Shown here: in pieces, positions 787 through 24,183 of the stretch
Position numbering within the stretch: the first letter of the stretch is position 1
How the letters are laid out: each line of letters opens with the position of its first letter
From: a virus
Strand: one strand, 5' to 3'
UHGV virus genome: UHGV-0386553
DNA: 26,097 bases
Made by a program: the position numbers and the translations under genes
The notes under the pieces: generated by a model
What the model saw: only the letters and a program-made list of their open reading frames with translations
What the model was told of the DNA's origin: nothing
Database searches by the model: none

Positions 787-803
787 ATTACCTTTCAGGT
801 AAT
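787..803. promoter_or_regulatory. Operator-like inverted repeat, copy 1 (ATTACC-TTTCA-GGTAAT)
   Basis: Perfect 6-5-6 inverted repeat, about 90 nt upstream of the ORF starting at 879. One of five related copies in the window. Confidence 0.55.
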
Positions 804-3332: not shown

Positions 3333-3361
3333 TTGCAGACTGTGGGTGAATAGCGTACTAT
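3333..3361 (+). promoter_or_regulatory. Sigma70-like promoter of the 55-aa / 147-aa cassette
   Basis: TTGCAG (3333-3338), 17-nt spacer, TACTAT (3356-3361); operator copy 3 starts at the end of the -10. Confidence 0.45.
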
Positions 3362-3376
3362 TACCTTAAAGGTAAA
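3360..3376. promoter_or_regulatory. Operator-like inverted repeat, copy 3 (ATTACC-TTAAA-GGTAAA)
   Basis: Overlaps the -10/+1 region and abuts the AGGAGG RBS of the ORF starting at 3388. Confidence 0.55.
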
Positions 3377-4108: not shown

Positions 4109-4270
4109 ATGAAAAAAGCATTTGCTGCACTGTTCGTTTTGTTGTCTCTGGTAGCTTCAACTCAGGCCTTTGCCGGTCGTTGTCAGCACGACAGCGACAC
4201 TGCTGCTGACGGCTCCCGCTGCGGTGGGCGTTCTGCGGATTCCCGCCCTGGCGGCGGTGGCATTCGTTAA
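4109..4270 (+). CDS. Small predicted secreted peptide (53 aa; signal peptide plus about 31-aa Gly/Cys-containing mature part)
   Basis: Track ORF 4037..4270 begins inside the terminator T-tract. The ATG at 4109 gives MKKAFAALFVLLSLVASTQAFA followed by GRCQHDSDTAADGSRCGGRSADSRPGGGGIR; a terminator hairpin follows. Possible promoter TTGACG (4068-4073)-N16-TATAGA. Weak RBS. Confidence 0.3.
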   Translation: MKKAFAALFVLLSLVASTQAFAGRCQHDSDTAADGSRCGGRSADSRPGGGGIR

Positions 4271-4276
4271 AAACAA

Positions 4277-4300
4277 GGCCGCGAAAGCGGCCTGTTTGAT
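4277..4300. terminator. Hairpin terminator between convergent genes
   Basis: GGCCGC-GAAA-GCGGCC perfect stem (4277-4292) followed by TGTTTGAT on the plus strand and preceded by AAAACAA; lies between the ORF ending at 4270 (+) and the ORF ending at 4300 (-). Confidence 0.6.
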
Positions 4301-5151
4301 CACTGTGCAGTTTTCGCTGATCGATTTTCAGCTCTAAATTCAAGAACCGTTTCAATATTTCTTTCCTTCAGCATATCAATAACATTTTTATTCATTTGAC
4401 TATCACTGGTTAATAACTGGTAAACGTTGCTTCTCTCTTTATCAGAGTTTTCTTTAACAGCTGCTTTGCATGCCAAATGCTTATTGAAATTTTCTACATC
4501 GCTAGTACAGGAATTTACGGCTGCTGATGAAATATCAGACGCTGAAGAAACACCATCATCCAAACGTTTTATAGCATTTTCTATACATGAGTTAAGGGAA
4601 TAAACGACAACTGAGCGATACCCTTCAGACGCACACCATTCTAAATTTCTTGAAGGATCGAGTGGTTTTACTTCGCTGGATTGAATTAACTTGTCAAAAA
4701 CTGACTTATATTCAATCTGTTTTTTATCTATAGCCCATACTTCAGTAGCTGATTTATAATTCCCCGTATGCCTATTAACATCAAATCCATGTTTTATAAG
4801 CAAATCTGCCCATGAAAGATTTATTGATTCATTGTTATGAGGCCATTTTCCTGTCAGAACCGCCCCCATAGACCCCATATATCCGCCATATGATGGTATA
4901 GCACCATGGCTCAGTAACTTCTCAGCAACCACAGGGCAATTAATTACATAAGAGGCGTAAAGCCCATTCCATAAAGCCCCTCTATAGTAATCGCCACGAT
5001 TAGGTTCTTTTAAGTCGATAGCCTTTGATAATTGTTCACACGTTTTGCATGCATCAAAGTTATCCTTATTGCATTGCAATGAACTGGCAGCTGTAGGATT
5101 TACAGAGACTATTGAAAGCACTATGCCAAAAAACAAATTTATTTTTTTCAT
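4300..5151 (-). CDS. Secreted or periplasmic protein (283 aa) with N-terminal Sec signal peptide; possible ankyrin-like repeats
   Basis: N-terminus MKKINLFFGIVLSIVSVNPTAASS is a typical signal peptide. Its ATG lies 1 nt after the stop of the 1129-aa gene (TAGGATG). AT-rich compared with the structural genes. Segments LLSHGA.. and ADLLIKHGFDVN loosely resemble ankyrin repeats (weak). Confidence 0.65.
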   Translation of the reverse strand: MKKINLFFGIVLSIVSVNPTAASSLQCNKDNFDACKTCEQLSKAIDLKEPNRGDYYRGALWNGLYASYVINCPVVAEKLLSHGAIPSYGGYMGSMGAVLTGKWPHNNESINLSWADLLIKHGFDVNRHTGNYKSATEVWAIDKKQIEYKSVFDKLIQSSEVKPLDPSRNLEWCASEGYRSVVVYSLNSCIENAIKRLDDGVSSASDISSAAVNSCTSDVENFNKHLACKAAVKENSDKERSNVYQLLTSDSQMNKNVIDMLKERNIETVLEFRAENRSAKTAQ

Positions 5152-18315: not shown

Positions 18316-18608
18316 TCCTGTTCACTGGCCTCTTTGGCCATCTTCAAATACTGTTCAGGGCAATGCGCCATAACGCGCTGAAACAGTTCCAGCGCCAGAT
18401 TGCGTTGCCCCTCATTAAATGCCATTGCCATAGCGTCCATCGGCGAGATAGCGGAAAACACACGGCCTTTCTCCAGTACCGACCAGACAACCCGACGCCC
18501 CTGTTCACAGCTCATGACAAAGCGAATGTCATCAATTTCACGCTGTGCCATGTCACGTTGCTTACGGGCGTTTTCTTCTTTCAGTTGATCGTCTTCGTAA
18601 TCTGTCAT
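18312..18608 (-). CDS. Small hypothetical protein (98 aa) between portal and scaffold genes
   Basis: ATGA overlaps at both ends (portal stop / its start; its stop / scaffold start). Confidence 0.45.
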   Translation of the reverse strand: MTDYEDDQLKEENARKQRDMAQREIDDIRFVMSCEQGRRVVWSVLEKGRVFSAISPMDAMAMAFNEGQRNLALELFQRVMAHCPEQYLKMAKEASEQE

Positions 18609-20594: not shown

Positions 20595-20611
20595 ATTACC
20601 CTTCAGGTAAG
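20595..20611. promoter_or_regulatory. Operator-like inverted repeat, copy 4 (ATTACC-CTTCA-GGTAAG)
   Basis: 16 nt downstream of a consensus -35 TTGACA (20574-20579); faces the rightward tRNA / Gp49-like unit. Confidence 0.5.
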
Positions 20612-20932: not shown

Positions 20933-20933
20933 G

Positions 20934-21009
20934 TGGCATTAGCTCAGTTGGACAGAGCAACCGCCTTCTAAGAGGTTGGTCGCAGGTTCGAATCCTGCAT
21001 GCCACGCCA
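20934..21009 (+). tRNA. tRNA-Arg (anticodon UCU, reads AGA)
   Basis: Manual cloverleaf: acceptor GTGGCAT/ATGCCAC, D-arm GCTC-AGTTGGACA-GAGC, anticodon loop CTTCTAA (U33, anticodon TCT, A37), T-arm GCAGG-TTCGAAT-CCTGC, discriminator G, encoded CCA. One G-A mismatch in the anticodon stem. Resembles E. coli argU. Confidence 0.8.
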
Positions 21010-21052
21010 GAATCACGCCTAAGGACCGTGATGCCAGAAGTTCCAGGTGCTT

Positions 21053-21096
21053 GGCGGTGATGGTTTCCCTTGAAGGACTATCACCGCCCTTTTTAC
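21053..21096 (+). terminator. Intrinsic terminator downstream of the tRNA
   Basis: GGCGGTGAT ... ATCACCGCC 9-bp stem with an 18-nt loop, followed by CTTTTTAC. Confidence 0.5.
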
Positions 21097-21172
21097 AGCA
21101 GGACGCCATTGCGATGACTTCATGCTGTAAACCCGTACAGACACGGAAGGCATAACTCATTGCTTCCAGTTC

Positions 21173-21197
21173 GCCCGGTTCGCCGGGCATTTTTTTA
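21173..21197 (+). terminator. Intrinsic terminator (UUCG tetraloop)
   Basis: GCCCGG-TTCG-CCGGGC followed by ATTTTTTTA; ends 10 nt before the RBS of the Gp49-like gene. Confidence 0.65.
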
Positions 21198-21207
21198 AGG
21201 TGAGATT

Positions 21208-21564
21208 ATGAACGACCAGCAAATCGAAAAAGAAATCGTTGAGAAAGGCAAAACCGCTCCGCGAGTTACGCCTCAATATATCGAAAGCATCATTCTTGAA
21301 GAGCATTTCTTTACTGCTTATGACGGCATTCGTGCTGCCAATATGGGCGTTGGCGATTCATGGACAGCGCATAAATCTACAGACCTCCTGACTTTCTGCG
21401 TACTGGTGCTGAAGAATGGCTTCACCGTCACCGGAGAGAGTGCCTGTGCAAGCCCGGAAAACTTTGATGCAGAAATTGGTCGGAAGATTGCCCGGCAGAA
21501 TGCTGTAAACAAAATCTGGATGCTTGAAGGTTACTTGCTGAAGCAGAAGTTAAGCGAGCAATAA
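21208..21564 (+). CDS. Gp49-like protein (phage N4 gp49 / Sf6 gene 66 family), 118 aa
   Basis: AAGGTGAG RBS; product contains LTFCVLVLKNGFTVTGESACASPENFDAEIGRKIA...KIWMLEGYLL, which matches my recollection of this family. Opposite strand to the structural genes. Confidence 0.55.
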   Translation: MNDQQIEKEIVEKGKTAPRVTPQYIESIILEEHFFTAYDGIRAANMGVGDSWTAHKSTDLLTFCVLVLKNGFTVTGESACASPENFDAEIGRKIARQNAVNKIWMLEGYLLKQKLSEQ

Positions 21565-21568
21565 CACC

Positions 21569-21580
21569 GTGACATGTCAC
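21569..21580. repeat. 12-bp perfect palindrome GTGACATGTCAC, copy 1
   Basis: Seen directly; an identical 14-nt core CGTGACATGTCACA recurs at about 23832-23845. Confidence 0.5.
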
Positions 21581-21584
21581 AAAC

Positions 21585-21612
21585 AGCCAGCCGATGAGCT
21601 GGCTTTGTTTTA
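21585..21612 (+). terminator. Rho-independent terminator after the Gp49-like gene
   Basis: AGCCAGC-CGATGA-GCTGGCT followed by TTGTTTTA. Confidence 0.7.
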
Positions 21613-21654
21613 TCCTCACCAGAGGATATCTCCGTCATTATCCCCGCTAACGGA

Positions 21655-23130
21655 TTAAGCATAGGGATCGTAATCTGTAATGGTCTTGCCTTGCTGGTTC
21701 TGCTGCCCGGGAATTCGCAGGCGCTTTGACACCGGGAAAGCAAACGTCAGCAGTAGCGCATCGCCTTTACCAGGCGAACGCCCAAGCCGCTCCTTGATAT
21801 CTTCCTTCGGTTCGATAACGATTTTACCGTCCACTCGAACTTTGTACTCTGCCGCCGACAGGTCGTCTGCTGTTTCCTGGTCATCCAGCATGCCGCCAAG
21901 CCTCAGCCATGTCTTGCATGAATTGAACATCTCCCCACGCTTGTTGAGCATCTGCGGGTCAGTAGACGCGCCACCGAACGGAACAAGTTGCCATGTACGA
22001 CCCCAGCCGTCACCGATTGACTTCAGCCCGGTACCGTAACCGAAGTCGATGAACACCGCGTCAGCCTGATACTGGTCTTCAAAGTCAGCGATACGCTTCG
22101 CCATAATCAGATCGTCGGTAGTCTTGTTGCCAGTCCACAGCACCTTACTGTGTAGCCCCTGCCGCAGGTATATCACAGCGTCATCAACGCCTGAATATGC
22201 CGGGTCAACACCGATTATCACCGGAGCATGCGCCACCTGCGCAGCGGTTACCACCCGTTTCATTGCCTCATCAGTAAGACCTGTAGGGATAAACTGCAAT
22301 TCAGATGCATCAGGGAATATGCCACGCACACGGATTTTAACGAAGTCGCTGTCTTCCCCGTAGTCATCAACCCATTTCTGCAACTGCTGTTTGTTAGTGC
22401 CTTCCACCGTCCGGCTGTCAATCTGCGCAGTTTTCCAGCGGTGTTTATATTTGCGGAAACATTCACGGAATCGCCCGGTATTACGCGTCGGGTTTCCGAA
22501 CGCCACCCAGATAATCTCAGTGTCTTCGTCCGTTAGCGCACCTTCGGCAACTTCCCACACCAGATCCGCAATGTTCGACGCTTCATCGAATACCACGATG
22601 ATGCGTTTGCGCTCGTTGTGTAGTCCGGCGAATGCCTCAGTGTTGTGCTCAGACCAGGGGATTGCGTCAGCTCGCCACCGCTTGTCGTGCCCAGGATCAT
22701 TGCTGTACATCGCGGTAGCGGTACAGGTAAACCAGTCTTTCGTGATAGCAAGGTTCGACCACTTGATAATTTCCGGCCAGGTCTTCGTTCGTAGCTGGTT
22801 GTCGGTGTTGGCGGTCACCACGACCTTACAATCCTCGCAAGTGGACATGCCCCAGTTGATCAGCATTGAGATGAATGCGGATTTACCAATACCGTGACCA
22901 GAAGCGCGTGCCAGCATAAGCGGCTGATAGCGCGTCTCTGGATTCTGCAGGTGATCACGTATCTCTCGGAACGCATCAGCCTGCCACTGACGTGGACCGG
23001 TGGCATGTGCCAGTTCAGTCCCCTCTTCCCCCCACGGGAACGCATAGAGGGCATAGCCAAGCGGATCGTGAGTGAACCCTGCAATATCCTCGATCAACTG
23101 CTCTTCAGGAGATAACGCTGCATCTGTCAC
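21655..23130 (-). CDS. Terminase large subunit (491 aa)
   Basis: Follows the small-subunit gene with a 4-nt overlap; size; Walker-A-like segment ARASGHGIGKSAF; C-terminal nuclease-like region with acidic residues. Confidence 0.8.
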   Translation of the reverse strand: MTDAALSPEEQLIEDIAGFTHDPLGYALYAFPWGEEGTELAHATGPRQWQADAFREIRDHLQNPETRYQPLMLARASGHGIGKSAFISMLINWGMSTCEDCKVVVTANTDNQLRTKTWPEIIKWSNLAITKDWFTCTATAMYSNDPGHDKRWRADAIPWSEHNTEAFAGLHNERKRIIVVFDEASNIADLVWEVAEGALTDEDTEIIWVAFGNPTRNTGRFRECFRKYKHRWKTAQIDSRTVEGTNKQQLQKWVDDYGEDSDFVKIRVRGIFPDASELQFIPTGLTDEAMKRVVTAAQVAHAPVIIGVDPAYSGVDDAVIYLRQGLHSKVLWTGNKTTDDLIMAKRIADFEDQYQADAVFIDFGYGTGLKSIGDGWGRTWQLVPFGGASTDPQMLNKRGEMFNSCKTWLRLGGMLDDQETADDLSAAEYKVRVDGKIVIEPKEDIKERLGRSPGKGDALLLTFAFPVSKRLRIPGQQNQQGKTITDYDPYA

Positions 23131-23723
23131 TGATTGCCATCCTGACGTTCTTTCAGTCTCTTCCTGGCTGCCGCTATGCGATCAGCAATTGTCACATTCA
23201 CATTAACATCCAGACGTTCTTTGAACGCGTTGACATCAACATGCTTACCAATCAGCTCAAGGTTCTTCACCTTGTCAGGCCATTTAATTTTTTTGAGGAT
23301 TGTCTCTATCGAATCCTCGTTCATGTTCATGATGGTCGATGACAGATCAAAGCCACTAAGCGTAGTGCGCCAGATTTTCGGCCACTCACGGATTGGTTTA
23401 AGGCTCCCATCGTCGTTGAGGATATCGATCACGTCCATCTGGTCGATCTCCACCAGGCGCATGAGAACGTAATCAGCACTGACGCGCATTCGTTTGTTGC
23501 GCTCCTCCATCAACTCGGCAATCCGTTTTTGAATGCGTTCATCGCGCATCATGACACTGGCTTTAACTGCCGCTGTATTTGGGGAGAATCCTGCGTTAAT
23601 CGCTGCCTGAGTCTGGTTTTCAGGCGTTTTGATGTATGACTGGCAATAAGCCTCCTGCATTGCTGTTAGTGGCTTAAATTGCGTTGATTTGCGTTTATAG
23701 GTTTTAGGTTCAGCAGGCATCAT
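23127..23723 (-). CDS. Terminase small subunit, P27-type (about 198 aa from the Met-Met start)
   Basis: Track ORF 23127..23801; preferred start is MMPAEPKTYKRK... at 23721-23723 because the upstream in-frame codons are tandem DNA repeats. N-terminal region LTAMQEAYCQSYIKTPENQTQAAINAGFSPNTAAVKAS is the typical small-terminase HTH signature. Confidence 0.7.
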   Translation of the reverse strand: MMPAEPKTYKRKSTQFKPLTAMQEAYCQSYIKTPENQTQAAINAGFSPNTAAVKASVMMRDERIQKRIAELMEERNKRMRVSADYVLMRLVEIDQMDVIDILNDDGSLKPIREWPKIWRTTLSGFDLSSTIMNMNEDSIETILKKIKWPDKVKNLELIGKHVDVNAFKERLDVNVNVTIADRIAAARKRLKERQDGNQ

Positions 23724-23730
23724 AACCACC

Positions 23731-23762
23731 GTGGTAATAGTTACCGTTGTGGTAATAGTACC
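23731..23762. repeat. Tandem direct repeat GTGGTAATAGT(T)ACC x2, each containing the palindrome GGTAA-N3-TTACC
   Basis: Seen directly, just upstream of the terminase small-subunit start. Confidence 0.5.
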
Positions 23763-23764
23763 AT

Positions 23765-23792
23765 GCAAAATAAAGCCGCCATAGTTGGCGGC
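23765..23792 (-). terminator. Intrinsic terminator upstream of the terminase genes (leftward)
   Basis: GCCGCC-AACTAT-GGCGGC stem (23775-23792) followed on the minus strand by TTTATTTTGC. Confidence 0.55.
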
Positions 23793-23832
23793 AGTATTCA
23801 AAACACATCAAATTCATCATGCATAATCTACT

Positions 23833-23844
23833 CGTGACATGTCA
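23833..23844. repeat. 12-bp perfect palindrome GTGACATGTCAC, copy 2
   Basis: Identical to the copy at 21569-21580; overlaps the stop codon of the 113-aa ORF. Confidence 0.5.
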
Positions 23845-24183
23845 CACTATTAATTTCGTTTCATGCCAGCCTTTAGTCACCCAGCATTGCGAGTCACCAT
23901 TGCACGGGCATGAATTAACTGGAACTCTCTCGCCGCACTTACCGCAACGTTTTCTGCTGATCGATTTTATACGCCCGCGCACGCGTGCATCATCCTGGCG
24001 GATCAGTAACGCTATATACTCACCAAATTCGTAAGGCGCACGCCCGGGGCGACGCGTGGCACAGTTACGCTCCAGCATTTCAATTTCCTGAGCATCAAGC
24101 ACAATTTCCAGCTTACGCACACCAGATGCAGCTTGTCTGGCTCTCTGAGCGGCTTTGCGCTCTGCTGCTGATTTAGCCATCAA
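23842..24183 (-). CDS. Small basic protein with C-terminal Cys cluster (113 aa), possibly DNA-binding
   Basis: C-terminal C-x2-C ... C-P-C ... C motif suggests a zinc ribbon; the N-terminal basic and helical part may be RHH-like (weak). Start overlaps the ASCH gene end. Confidence 0.45.
   Translation of the reverse strand: MMAKSAAERKAAQRARQAASGVRKLEIVLDAQEIEMLERNCATRRPGRAPYEFGEYIALLIRQDDARVRGRIKSISRKRCGKCGERVPVNSCPCNGDSQCWVTKGWHETKLIV

What the first reader, a model, noticed from the sequence alone, without database searches (positions are those of the whole stretch)
21569..23844. Identical 12-bp palindrome GTGACATGTCAC at two intergenic sites flanking the terminase genes
The same 14-nt core CGTGACATGTCACA occurs at 21568-21581 (after the Gp49-like gene, before its terminator) and 23832-23845 (upstream of the terminase small-subunit gene, overlapping the stop of the 113-aa ORF). 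Two identical perfect palindromes bracketing the terminase genes could be binding sites for a late regulator, recombination or insertion boundaries of a module, or packaging-related sites.
Basis: seen in the sequence. Interest (0 to 1): 0.45.

Follow-up and report, generated by a model that had tools for sequence, protein, structure and literature searches.

The report
Conserved phage palindrome tied to regulator gene
The two identical palindromes are real copies of a 14-bp DNA signal that in many temperate phages of enteric bacteria sits at the end of one small uncharacterised DNA-binding-protein gene and at ends of other transcription units, so it is most likely that protein's binding site, not a terminase or packaging signal.

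Summary
Observation confirmed. GTGACATGTCAC occurs exactly twice (21569-21580, 23834-23845); no shuffle gave one copy. The window is an epsilon15/phiV10-like prophage with late genes on the minus strand. The copy at 23834 contains the stop codon of a 112-aa gene (epsilon15 gp49 / N15 gp46 family, phrog_536), whose model has a ribbon-helix-helix fold plus four invariant cysteines. The other follows the converging Gp49_66 gene, 4 nt before a terminator.

In 80 loci from different bacterial species chosen only for encoding this protein (41-81% identity), 56 carry GTGAC-N2-GTCAC at the gene's 3' end. These loci hold 108 such sites against about 1.4 expected. Only the 2-nt spacer is enriched. Flanks are Y...R, giving a 14-bp site.

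Five complete Uetakeviruses, ZF40 and N15 each have three sites. N15's three all share a TG/CA centre unseen elsewhere. About 31% of sites lie within 45 nt of an intrinsic terminator.

Best reading: the cognate operator of this protein, placed at operon ends. What binding does is inferred only.

The half-sites equal host matS, but spacing fails matS and bases 5-6 fail the SlmA site. Mosaic junctions fall at the site. A packaging role is not supported. I found no description of it in the searchable literature.

The parts
23833..23846 (.). Site A: 14-bp site CGTGACATGTCACA (12-bp perfect palindrome 23834-23845). It contains the TGA stop of the RHH/Cys4 gene and marks the end of the early-right operon.
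   Evidence: The same position is kept in 75/80 close relatives and in 56/80 distant loci.
21568..21581 (.). Site B: the identical 14-bp site, 4 nt after the stop of the converging Gp49_66 gene and 4 nt before the terminator hairpin that also follows the large terminase gene.
   Evidence: It is conserved in phiV10, epsilon15, Tyrion, typing phage 9 and PAT1 while the adjacent gene varies.
23842..24180 (-). Gene for the 112-aa candidate binding protein (epsilon15 gp49 / phiV10 p55 / N15 gp46 family; phrog_536): basic N-terminal arm, ribbon-helix-helix fold, and a C-terminal domain with four invariant cysteines.
   Evidence: No Pfam family matched and every homologue is named 'hypothetical'.
23775..23792 (-). 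Intrinsic terminator hairpin (GCCGCCAACTATGGCGGC followed by TTTATTTT) 41 nt downstream of site A. It closes the early-right operon before the terminase operon.
   Evidence: The equivalent stem-loop is annotated in epsilon15 at 39646-39672.
21585..21604 (+). Terminator hairpin (AGCCAGCCGATGAGCTGGCT followed by TTGTTTT) for the Gp49_66 gene. On the other strand it follows the large terminase gene with a weaker U-tract.
   Evidence: It is annotated as a terminator in phiV10 at 2238-2257.
23798..23824 (-). Eight-codon mini-ORF MHDEFDVF* between site A and the terminator.
   Evidence: 67 copies in 4.27 Mb of fetched loci. 61 lie within 25 nt of an exact palindrome; the 6 scored 'far' include phiV10, typing phage 9 and L144, whose adjacent palindrome has one mismatch. 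Variation is mostly at third codon positions.
23722..23756 (.). Two adjacent operator-like sites of the prophage repressor type (ATTACC-N5-GGTAAT, one mismatch each) immediately upstream of the small terminase start. They mark the start of the terminase transcription unit that the two palindromes flank.
   Evidence: 6 sites in the window against 0.08 expected. The motif is annotated as the repressor site in epsilon15.
21655..23720 (-). Small and large terminase genes (TerS 23127-23720 from the ATG, TerL 21655-23130), which form the unit lying between the two sites.
21208..21564 (+). Gp49_66-family accessory gene converging on the terminase genes. Site B belongs to its 3' end.
   Evidence: PF13876, E = 1.7e-34. 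In Tyrion site B stays with this gene although another gene separates it from TerL.
4294..4303 (.). Position of the lost third site (site C). The terminator ggccgcgaaagcggcc is followed by GTTTGATCAC instead of GTGACATGTCAC.
   Evidence: homology with relatives ends at window 4295, the second base of the palindrome position.

Best explanation
The palindrome is the core of a 14-bp protein-binding site, Y-GTGAC-(A|T)-GTCAC-R. It is most likely bound as a dimer by the small ribbon-helix-helix / four-cysteine protein encoded immediately upstream of the copy at 23834 (window 23842-24180, minus strand). Gene and site travel together: the site normally overlaps or directly follows the gene's stop codon. 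A phage genome typically carries three copies, placed at the 3' ends of transcription units, often right before an intrinsic terminator, or inside early genes. In this window one copy closes the early-right operon just before the terminator and the repressor-controlled terminase operon. The other closes the converging accessory gene at the terminator that also ends the terminase operon. The inferred action is that the protein, made from the early operon, occupies these sites and changes how much transcription crosses operon ends, as a roadblock or termination aid, possibly with bridging of sites. This would insulate neighbouring units and feed back on its own operon. Shown here: the motif, its enrichment, spacing, flanks and gene linkage, the fold, DNA-level selection, and within-genome covariation. 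Inferred: that this protein binds the site, and what binding does.
Against: No binding experiment exists; the assignment rests on association. About 30% of homologous genes lack a site at their 3' end, and 5/80 loci have none within 10 kb. Aeromonas and P2-like Yersinia homologues show none within 2.5 kb. A site at the 3' end of the regulator's own gene is unusual for ribbon-helix-helix autorepressors. The negative control is small (two genomes), so I have not shown that sites are absent wherever the gene is absent. Some copies of the 14-mer occur in other contexts: the start of Q-like genes (MRDMSQ) and a CxxCxGxG protein. The window phage and EC.W1-9 lack site C, so at least that copy is dispensable. 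The proposed effect on transcription is not tested at all.
Confidence: 0.6

Rival explanations
1. The palindrome is primarily a recombination 'linker': a short conserved sequence at which different phages exchange modules, by microhomology or by a site-specific activity, so that it marks cassette boundaries.
For: Homology between relatives breaks exactly at the edge of the 14-mer. At site C at least seven unrelated upstream genes abut the same palindrome-plus-terminator. At site A several unrelated downstream modules follow it. At site B the converging gene varies. In the window the swap that brought in the 283-aa gene has its junction inside the palindrome. The palindrome carries TGA and ATG on both strands and is used as a stop and as a start codon in different phages. 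Boundary sequences are an established idea for lambdoid phages and are annotated as bsq2-bsq7 in Sf6.
Against: Variable cassettes have a palindrome on one side only, and the other boundary lies in ordinary conserved genes. 14 bp is short for homologous exchange, and 5-2-5 is too small for a tyrosine-recombinase core. Copies inside coding regions under DNA-level selection (cII-like gene, N15 repA) are not module junctions. Strict spacing, Y/R flanks and N15 covariation fit protein recognition. A conserved functional site next to fast-changing accessory genes produces the same junction pattern without any recombination role.
Confidence: 0.12
2. The site is read by a host protein of enteric bacteria, for example MatP (it has matS half-sites), SlmA (it has the same 5-2-5 layout) or an unknown factor, and the phage uses it to connect with host chromosome organisation or division.
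For: The half-sites GTGAC/GTCAC are those of matS, GTGACRNYGTCAC. The outer GTGA...TCAC and the 12-bp length equal the SlmA site GTGAGTACTCAC. The protein family is found in Enterobacterales, Vibrio and Aeromonas phages, a range that from my own knowledge resembles that of MatP and SlmA. The motif is the same in very different phage types.
Against: matS needs a 3-nt spacer, and spacer-3 sites are not enriched (2 against 1.4 expected). True matS is absent from 500 prophages and judged counter-selected (PMC3603311). SlmA strongly prefers G at position 5 and a pyrimidine at position 6, whereas the phage site has C and A (PMC3020112). N15's three sites share a private centre, pointing to a phage-specific reader. 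The tight linkage to one phage gene is not explained by a host factor.
Confidence: 0.1
3. The element acts in RNA: a small 3'-UTR or intercistronic hairpin, or a stop-start coupling signal (gUGAcAUG), that affects mRNA stability, termination or re-initiation.
For: Every site follows a gene end in the direction of that gene, often directly 5' of a terminator hairpin. TGA and ATG within it serve as stop and start. A conserved 8-codon mini-ORF accompanies many copies.
Against: The hairpin alone is worth only -1.2 kcal/mol and is no better than shuffles. The stem never covaries; its sequence is invariant while the loop-equivalent centre varies, which is the signature of sequence-specific recognition rather than structure. 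No Rfam family matches. Sites B and C have no downstream gene to couple to.
Confidence: 0.08
4. The sites are packaging signals (pac or accessory terminase sites) because they flank the terminase genes.
For: In this window they bracket TerS-TerL. In about 12 of 80 loci the protein's gene is immediately upstream of a small terminase gene.
Against: There are three copies per genome, including the end of the virion operon. In ZF40 the sites lie in the early region, 9-19 kb from the terminase genes. N15 packages from cos at its genome end, yet has the sites at 28.5, 33.2 and 39.3 kb. Site B stays with the accessory gene, not with TerL, in Tyrion.
Confidence: 0.02

Closest known systems
Ribbon-helix-helix (MetJ/Arc/CopG-type) regulators with palindromic operators, such as P22 Arc and Mnt, CopG, PutA, and the antitoxins MazE, ParD and TacA
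   Different: There is no sequence-level family match (no Pfam hit; NCBIfam YbfE only at E = 0.05). A C-terminal domain with four invariant cysteines is fused. The site sits at the 3' end of the gene, overlapping the stop codon, instead of in its promoter. Further copies lie at operon ends and inside coding regions.
MatP / matS of E. coli (Ter macrodomain organiser)
   Different: matS is 13 bp with a 3-nt spacer, whereas the phage site is strictly 5-2-5. No sequence homology was found (hhalign probability 0.1%). The phage protein model shows no four-helix bundle or coiled coil and has a cysteine cluster instead. matS itself is absent from prophages (PMC3603311).
SlmA-binding sequence (SBS) GTGAGTACTCAC
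   Same: It is a 12-bp palindrome with a 5-2-5 layout and the same outer GTGA...TCAC.
   Different: SlmA is a TetR-family protein. Positions 5 (G) and 6 (pyrimidine) are important for its binding (PMC3020112), and the phage site has C and A there.
Boundary sequences (bsq) of lambdoid phages (Sf6/HK620 annotation)
   Same: They are conserved short sequences found exactly where mosaic modules meet.
   Different: The annotated bsq elements are 31-241 bp, not palindromic, and are viewed as substrates of homologous exchange. Here the element is a 14-bp palindrome with strict spacing, linked to a DNA-binding-protein gene and also present inside genes.
Lambda Q / qut late module (regulator gene followed by its site, a short leader and a terminator before late genes)
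   Same: In epsilon15-like phages the order is regulator gene, site, short leader with mini-ORF, terminator, then first late genes. A weak promoter-like match uses GTGACA as the -35 hexamer.
   Different: There is no similarity to Q. ZF40 and N15 have their own Q-like genes, and there the homologue is not next to late genes. Sites B and C leave no room for a promoter.

Membership tests
Ribbon-helix-helix transcription factor with operator | Ribbon-helix-helix fold of the DNA-binding domain | tested here: met
Ribbon-helix-helix transcription factor with operator | Specific binding of a dimer (or higher form) to a symmetric or repeated operator | not testable with these tools
   This is inferred only, from gene-site linkage, strict spacing, Y/R flanks and N15 covariation.
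Ribbon-helix-helix transcription factor with operator | Operator overlaps the regulator's own promoter (autorepression) | tested here: not met
   The site is at the 3' end of the gene, usually containing its stop codon. No copy lies upstream of the gene in the window.
MatP / matS | 13-bp site GTGACRNYGTCAC (3-nt spacer) | tested here: not met
   The window sites have a 2-nt spacer. In 1.48 Mb there are 108 spacer-2 sites against 2 spacer-3 sites. The consensus is taken from PMC6907758 and PMC3603311.
MatP / matS | Protein homologous to MatP (four-helix bundle, ribbon-helix-helix domain, coiled coil) | tested here: not met
SlmA / SBS | G, T, A, G at positions 1, 2, 4, 5 and a pyrimidine at position 6 of the 12-bp palindrome | tested here: not met
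   The phage site is G T G A C A: position 5 is C and position 6 is A. The requirements are taken from PMC3020112.
Lambdoid boundary sequences (bsq) | Conserved sequence located at junctions between mosaic modules | tested here: inconclusive
   The junction location is met. However, copies also occur inside genes, the element is far shorter than the annotated bsq elements (31-241 bp), and an excess of exchange at the site was not measured.
pac / cos packaging site | A site in or next to the terminase genes, or at the genome end, where packaging starts | tested here: not met
   There are three dispersed copies per genome. In ZF40 and N15 they are far from the terminase genes and cos.
Q/qut-type late antitermination module | Regulator gene directly followed by the late promoter with its binding element and a terminator, upstream of late genes, in all members | tested here: not met
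   The layout fits only epsilon15-like phages. In ZF40 the homologue precedes NinB and a separate Q-like gene. In N15 a separate Q-like gene 40 exists.
Integron-like cassette site (attC) | An imperfect palindrome of 57-141 bp at every cassette boundary, plus an integron integrase (definition from my own knowledge) | tested here: not met
   The site is 14 bp, lies on only one side of the variable genes, and no dedicated integrase is adjacent.

The most novel reading that the evidence does not exclude
The protein and its (typically three) sites form a phage-borne architectural system analogous to MatP/matS. Dimers on the 14-bp sites are bridged through the cysteine domain, folding the phage genome into loops that insulate transcription units. 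The motif would deliberately sit one step away from the host signals (matS half-sites, SBS spacing), so that the phage avoids or competes with host chromosome organisers.
Probability: 0.12. Interest if true: 0.8.

Novelty: new variant of a known kind. Interest (0 to 1): 0.55.

Why it matters
If the assignment holds, a widespread, unnamed protein family of temperate phages and prophages of Escherichia, Salmonella, Klebsiella, Yersinia, Pantoea, Xenorhabdus and others, including the model phages epsilon15, phiV10, N15 and ZF40, gains a defined DNA target and a small, predictable regulon. The family has at least 726 sequence clusters, all labelled 'hypothetical' or given a generic name. The placement of the sites is unusual: at operon ends, over the regulator's own stop codon, and next to intrinsic terminators. 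This points to control of read-through or insulation rather than classical promoter repression, and simple experiments can test it. The motif is also a practical landmark for annotating operon ends and mosaic junctions in these prophages. Its near-identity to host matS and SlmA sites raises a testable question about interplay with host chromosome organisation.

Tried and rejected
- **Chance:** rejected.
- **Part of a longer repeat:** rejected. The flanks of the two window copies differ beyond the 14-mer, and the 14-mer is explained by the Y...R consensus.
- **CRP or LexA site:** does not fit by spacing or sequence (my own knowledge). LexA-type boxes do occur, but downstream of the palindrome in other prophages.
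- **Prophage repressor operator:** rejected. That motif is ATTACC-N5-GGTAAT and occurs elsewhere in the window.
- **Known RNA family:** none found; only a tRNA and a sub-threshold rseX match.
- **Stable RNA hairpin:** rejected.
- **Sequence homology of the protein to solved structures:** none; only PARP zinc-finger noise at E of about 1.
- **MatP homology:** rejected at sequence level.
- **Literature:** no paper in the library contains the 12-mer. The ZX5 paper concerns other regulators. A lysogen proteome of a telomere phage lists a 'gp46' among the expressed proteins, but I could not confirm it belongs to this family.
- **Structure prediction:** I repeated it with database proteins.
- **Not done:** a true census of sites in phages lacking the gene (only lambda and Sf6 were checked), and a count in host chromosomes.
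Full report
**1. The observation**

GTGACATGTCAC occurs exactly twice in the window, at 21569-21580 and 23834-23845. None of 100 dinucleotide-preserving shuffles contained even one copy. Allowing two mismatches adds only a coding-region match at 18545, which is within chance.

**2. Genomic context**

The window is an epsilon15/phiV10-like temperate podophage (Uetakevirus) with its late genes on the minus strand.

- Site A (23834) contains the TGA stop of a 113-codon ORF. The real start is probably the ATG at 24180, giving 112 aa. This is the last gene of the early-right operon and the homologue of epsilon15 gp49 and phiV10 p55.
- Downstream on the minus strand come an 8-codon mini-ORF, a terminator (23775-23792) and two operator-like sites of the prophage-repressor type (23722-23756). 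The small and large terminase genes follow.
- Site B (21569) lies 4 nt after the stop of a converging Gp49_66-family gene (PF13876). It is 4 nt before the terminator hairpin at 21585-21604, which on the other strand also follows the large terminase gene.

**3. Relatives have three sites, not two**

phiV10, epsilon15, Enterobacter phage Tyrion, O157 typing phage 9 and Salmonella phage PAT1 each have three copies, at the same three places:

- after the gp49-type gene;
- after the Gp49_66-type gene;
- between the last gene of the virion operon and its terminator.

In phiV10 and typing phage 9 the first copy has one mismatch, and the phiV10 record is cut inside it. In PAT1 the second copy has an AG centre. 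In Tyrion the second copy stays with the accessory gene although another gene separates it from the terminase gene.

The window lacks the third copy. The conserved terminator at 4278-4293 is followed by GTTTGATCAC, the end of a 283-aa gene shared only with phage EC.W1-9. Homology to all other relatives stops at window 4295, the second base of the palindrome position.

**4. Linkage to one gene**

Among 80 viral contigs encoding near-identical proteins, 75 have the exact palindrome overlapping the stop, with two quite different downstream sequences.

For an unbiased test I fetched 80 loci from different bacterial species. They were chosen only because they encode a relative of the protein, at 41-81% identity.

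- Forty have the exact 12-mer within 25 nt of the stop.
- Twelve have one change and four have two. Most changes fall in the central dinucleotide, but a few 1-mismatch copies break a half-site.
- The site can lie 2-23 nt beyond a different stop codon, so it is not a by-product of coding.
- 75 of the 80 loci hold at least one GTGAC-N2-GTCAC within 10 kb.
- In total there are 108 sites in 1.48 Mb, where about 1.4 are expected.

The linkage reaches N15 gp46 and phiKO2 gp45 (about 35% identity), where CGTGACTGGTCACG overlaps the stop.

**5. Anatomy of the motif**

Only the 2-nt spacer is enriched: 108 sites, against 1-3 for spacers of 0, 1 and 3-6 nt, and none for the everted arrangement. The centre is AT in 87 of 108 sites. 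The base before each half-site is a pyrimidine in 211 of 220 cases. The functional unit is therefore 14 bp, Y-GTGAC-AT-GTCAC-R. This explains why the two window copies share 14 rather than 12 bases.

The RNA hairpin it could form is worth only -1.2 kcal/mol, no better than shuffles. No Rfam family matches. An invariant stem sequence with a variable centre is the signature of sequence-specific protein recognition, not of RNA structure.

**6. Selection acts on the DNA**

In a cII-like gene found in many of these prophages and in ZF40 (gp12), 10 of 15 distinct homologues carry YGTGACATGTCAC in frame, encoding R/C-D-M-S. The neighbouring codons vary, and the preceding codon switches between CGT (Arg) and TGT (Cys), which keeps the pyrimidine. 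Homologues without the site encode RDRPQ or RDVTQ at that place. The protein does not need those residues; the DNA motif is what is kept.

**7. The protein**

It has no Pfam family. PHROG 536 labels it 'transcriptional regulator' without tested function. The only NCBIfam hint is a sub-threshold match to the ribbon-helix-helix protein YbfE. All database relatives are 'hypothetical' or 'gp46'.

**8. Phage reader or host reader**

The half-sites are those of host matS, GTGACRNYGTCAC (PMC6907758, PMC3603311). The layout is that of the SlmA site GTGAGTACTCAC (PMC3020112). Both memberships fail.

- matS needs a 3-nt spacer, which is not enriched here. True matS was found in none of 500 prophages.
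- SlmA needs G at position 5 and a pyrimidine at position 6, where the phage site has C and A.
- The protein shows no sequence relation to MatP.

In favour of a phage-encoded reader, N15 has exactly three sites: 28550, 33237 (inside repA) and 39269 (stop of gene 46). All three have a TG/CA centre, which never occurs among the 108 sites of the other set. Lambda and Sf6 lack the gene and have no site, but this control is small.

**9. Where the sites sit and what that suggests**

ZF40 also has three sites: inside gp08, inside the cII-like gp12, and 2 nt after gp22, which lies in the nin-like region before NinB and a Q-like gene. Across all loci the recurrent contexts are as follows:

- stop codon, 2-5 nt, site, terminator hairpin, behind many unrelated genes;
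- site between two tandem genes, with its TGA used as the stop and its ATG as the start;
- site just upstream of a ribosome-binding site;
- site inside early genes.

None was seen in a divergent promoter region. A terminator-like hairpin lies within 45 nt of 33 of 108 sites, against 12% of long-ORF ends and 7% of random positions. In 19 of the 33 it is 0-8 nt away.

My inference is that the protein, made from an early operon, binds at operon ends and modulates read-through, as a roadblock or termination aid, perhaps by bridging sites. This would insulate adjacent units and limit its own operon. In the window that means the boundary between the early operon and the terminase operon, and the convergent junction behind the terminase genes. 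This step is not shown by any result here.

A weak promoter-like match uses GTGACA of site A as a -35 hexamer. That could apply only to site A.

**10. Module boundaries**

At site C at least seven unrelated upstream genes abut the same palindrome-plus-terminator. At site A different modules follow the gene: a terminase operon, an extra small gene, a LexA-box promoter with a umuD-like gene, or excisionase-like genes. At site B the converging gene varies. In the window a module swap has its junction inside the site.

However, the variable segments carry the palindrome on one side only, 14 bp is very short for exchange, and copies inside genes are not junctions. A conserved functional site beside fast-changing accessory genes gives the same picture. 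I therefore rank a dedicated recombination role as a minor rival.

**11. Packaging**

A packaging role is not supported. There are three dispersed copies per genome. In ZF40 and N15 the copies are far from the terminase genes and cos. Site B follows the accessory gene rather than the terminase gene.

**12. Novelty and verdict**

No paper in the searchable library contains the 12-mer. The deposited annotations of epsilon15 and phiV10 list terminators, repressor, IHF and RNase III sites but not this element.

I file it as a new variant of a known kind: a ribbon-helix-helix regulator with a palindromic operator. It is unusual in three ways: the fused cysteine domain, the position of the site at the 3' end of its own gene, and its dispersal to operon ends.

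- Confidence that the site is this protein's binding site: about 0.6.
- Confidence in the proposed effect on transcription: lower.
- Interest: moderate (0.55). The element is widespread, previously unnoticed as far as I could find, and directly testable.

Noticed in passing
window 23798-23824 (minus strand); also L002 (epsilon15) about 2158-2184, and L209, L113, L208, L218: A conserved 8-codon mini-ORF, M-x-D-E-F-D-x-F-stop. 67 copies were found in 4.27 Mb of fetched loci, 61 of them within 25 nt of an exact palindrome; the 6 others include copies whose palindrome has one mismatch. At site A the order is palindrome, mini-ORF, terminator, with the stop 5 nt before the stem. At site B of epsilon15 the order is gene, ATGA overlap, mini-ORF, palindrome, terminator. 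Variation is mostly at third codon positions, which suggests it is translated. It may be a leader peptide influencing the terminator.
   Followed up: partly
window 787-803, 2320-2336, 3360-3376, 20595-20611, 23722-23738, 23740-23756: Six matches (at most 1 mismatch) to ATTACC-N5-GGTAAT, the motif annotated as the prophage-repressor site in epsilon15, against 0.08 expected. Two sit directly before the small terminase gene and one before the portal operon. This suggests that the immunity repressor directly controls several late transcription units.
   Followed up: partly
window 4270-5151: The third palindrome found in relatives is missing. A 283-aa gene (4300-5151, minus strand), shared only with phage EC.W1-9, replaces the usual small gene, and the novel joint lies inside the palindrome position (homology ends at 4295).
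   Followed up: yes
window 20933-21006 (+): A tRNA gene (Rfam tRNA, 63 bits; annotated tRNA-Arg in typing phage 9) overlaps the mechanically listed 83-aa ORF at 20939-21190 (minus strand).
   Followed up: no
L293/L286 (phage N15): record positions 28550, 33237, 39269: N15 has exactly three sites, all with the non-palindromic centre TG/CA. One lies inside repA (around codon 204), one between genes 33 and 32 of the anti-repressor region, and one on the stop of gene 46. phiKO2 gp45 has the same variant at its stop.
   Followed up: yes
L228 3965, L285 (ZF40) 7622, and 8 other loci: A cII-like activator gene carries the palindrome in frame near its 3' end (R/C-D-M-S). Homologues without the site encode other residues there, so the DNA motif, not the peptide, is conserved. 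The place recalls the antisense oop region of lambda cII (from my own knowledge).
   Followed up: partly
L205, L206, L211, L212, L220, L222, L223 (20-70 nt after the palindrome or gene end): In several prophages the gene is followed by a LexA-box-like sequence (CTGT-N8-ACAG, for example tactgtttaaatgtacagt) and, in L205, by a umuD-like gene. This looks like an SOS-controlled promoter directly downstream of the site.
   Followed up: no
L009, L014, L019, L071, L112, L121, L248: The 14-mer also forms the first codons (M-R-D-M-S-Q) of a Q-like antiterminator gene in lambdoid contigs. In other loci the central ATG of the palindrome is the start codon of genes beginning MSR.../MSQ... (for example L239 17605, L262 17146). 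I did not resolve whether these copies are functional sites or coding coincidences.
   Followed up: no
L001 (phiV10 RefSeq record), ends of the record: The deposited phiV10 and Tyrion records are cut inside the palindrome (right after the p55/gp52 stop), so site A is invisible unless the record is circularised. The RefSeq start of phiV10 TerS (41, 224 aa) would overlap the terminator, and the ATG giving 197 aa fits better.
   Followed up: partly
PMC12042878 (telomere phage NAR688 lysogen proteome): A protein called gp46 is among only nine phage proteins detected in lysogens. If it belongs to this family, the protein would be expressed in the prophage state. Identity with the N15 gp46 family was not verified.
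   Followed up: no
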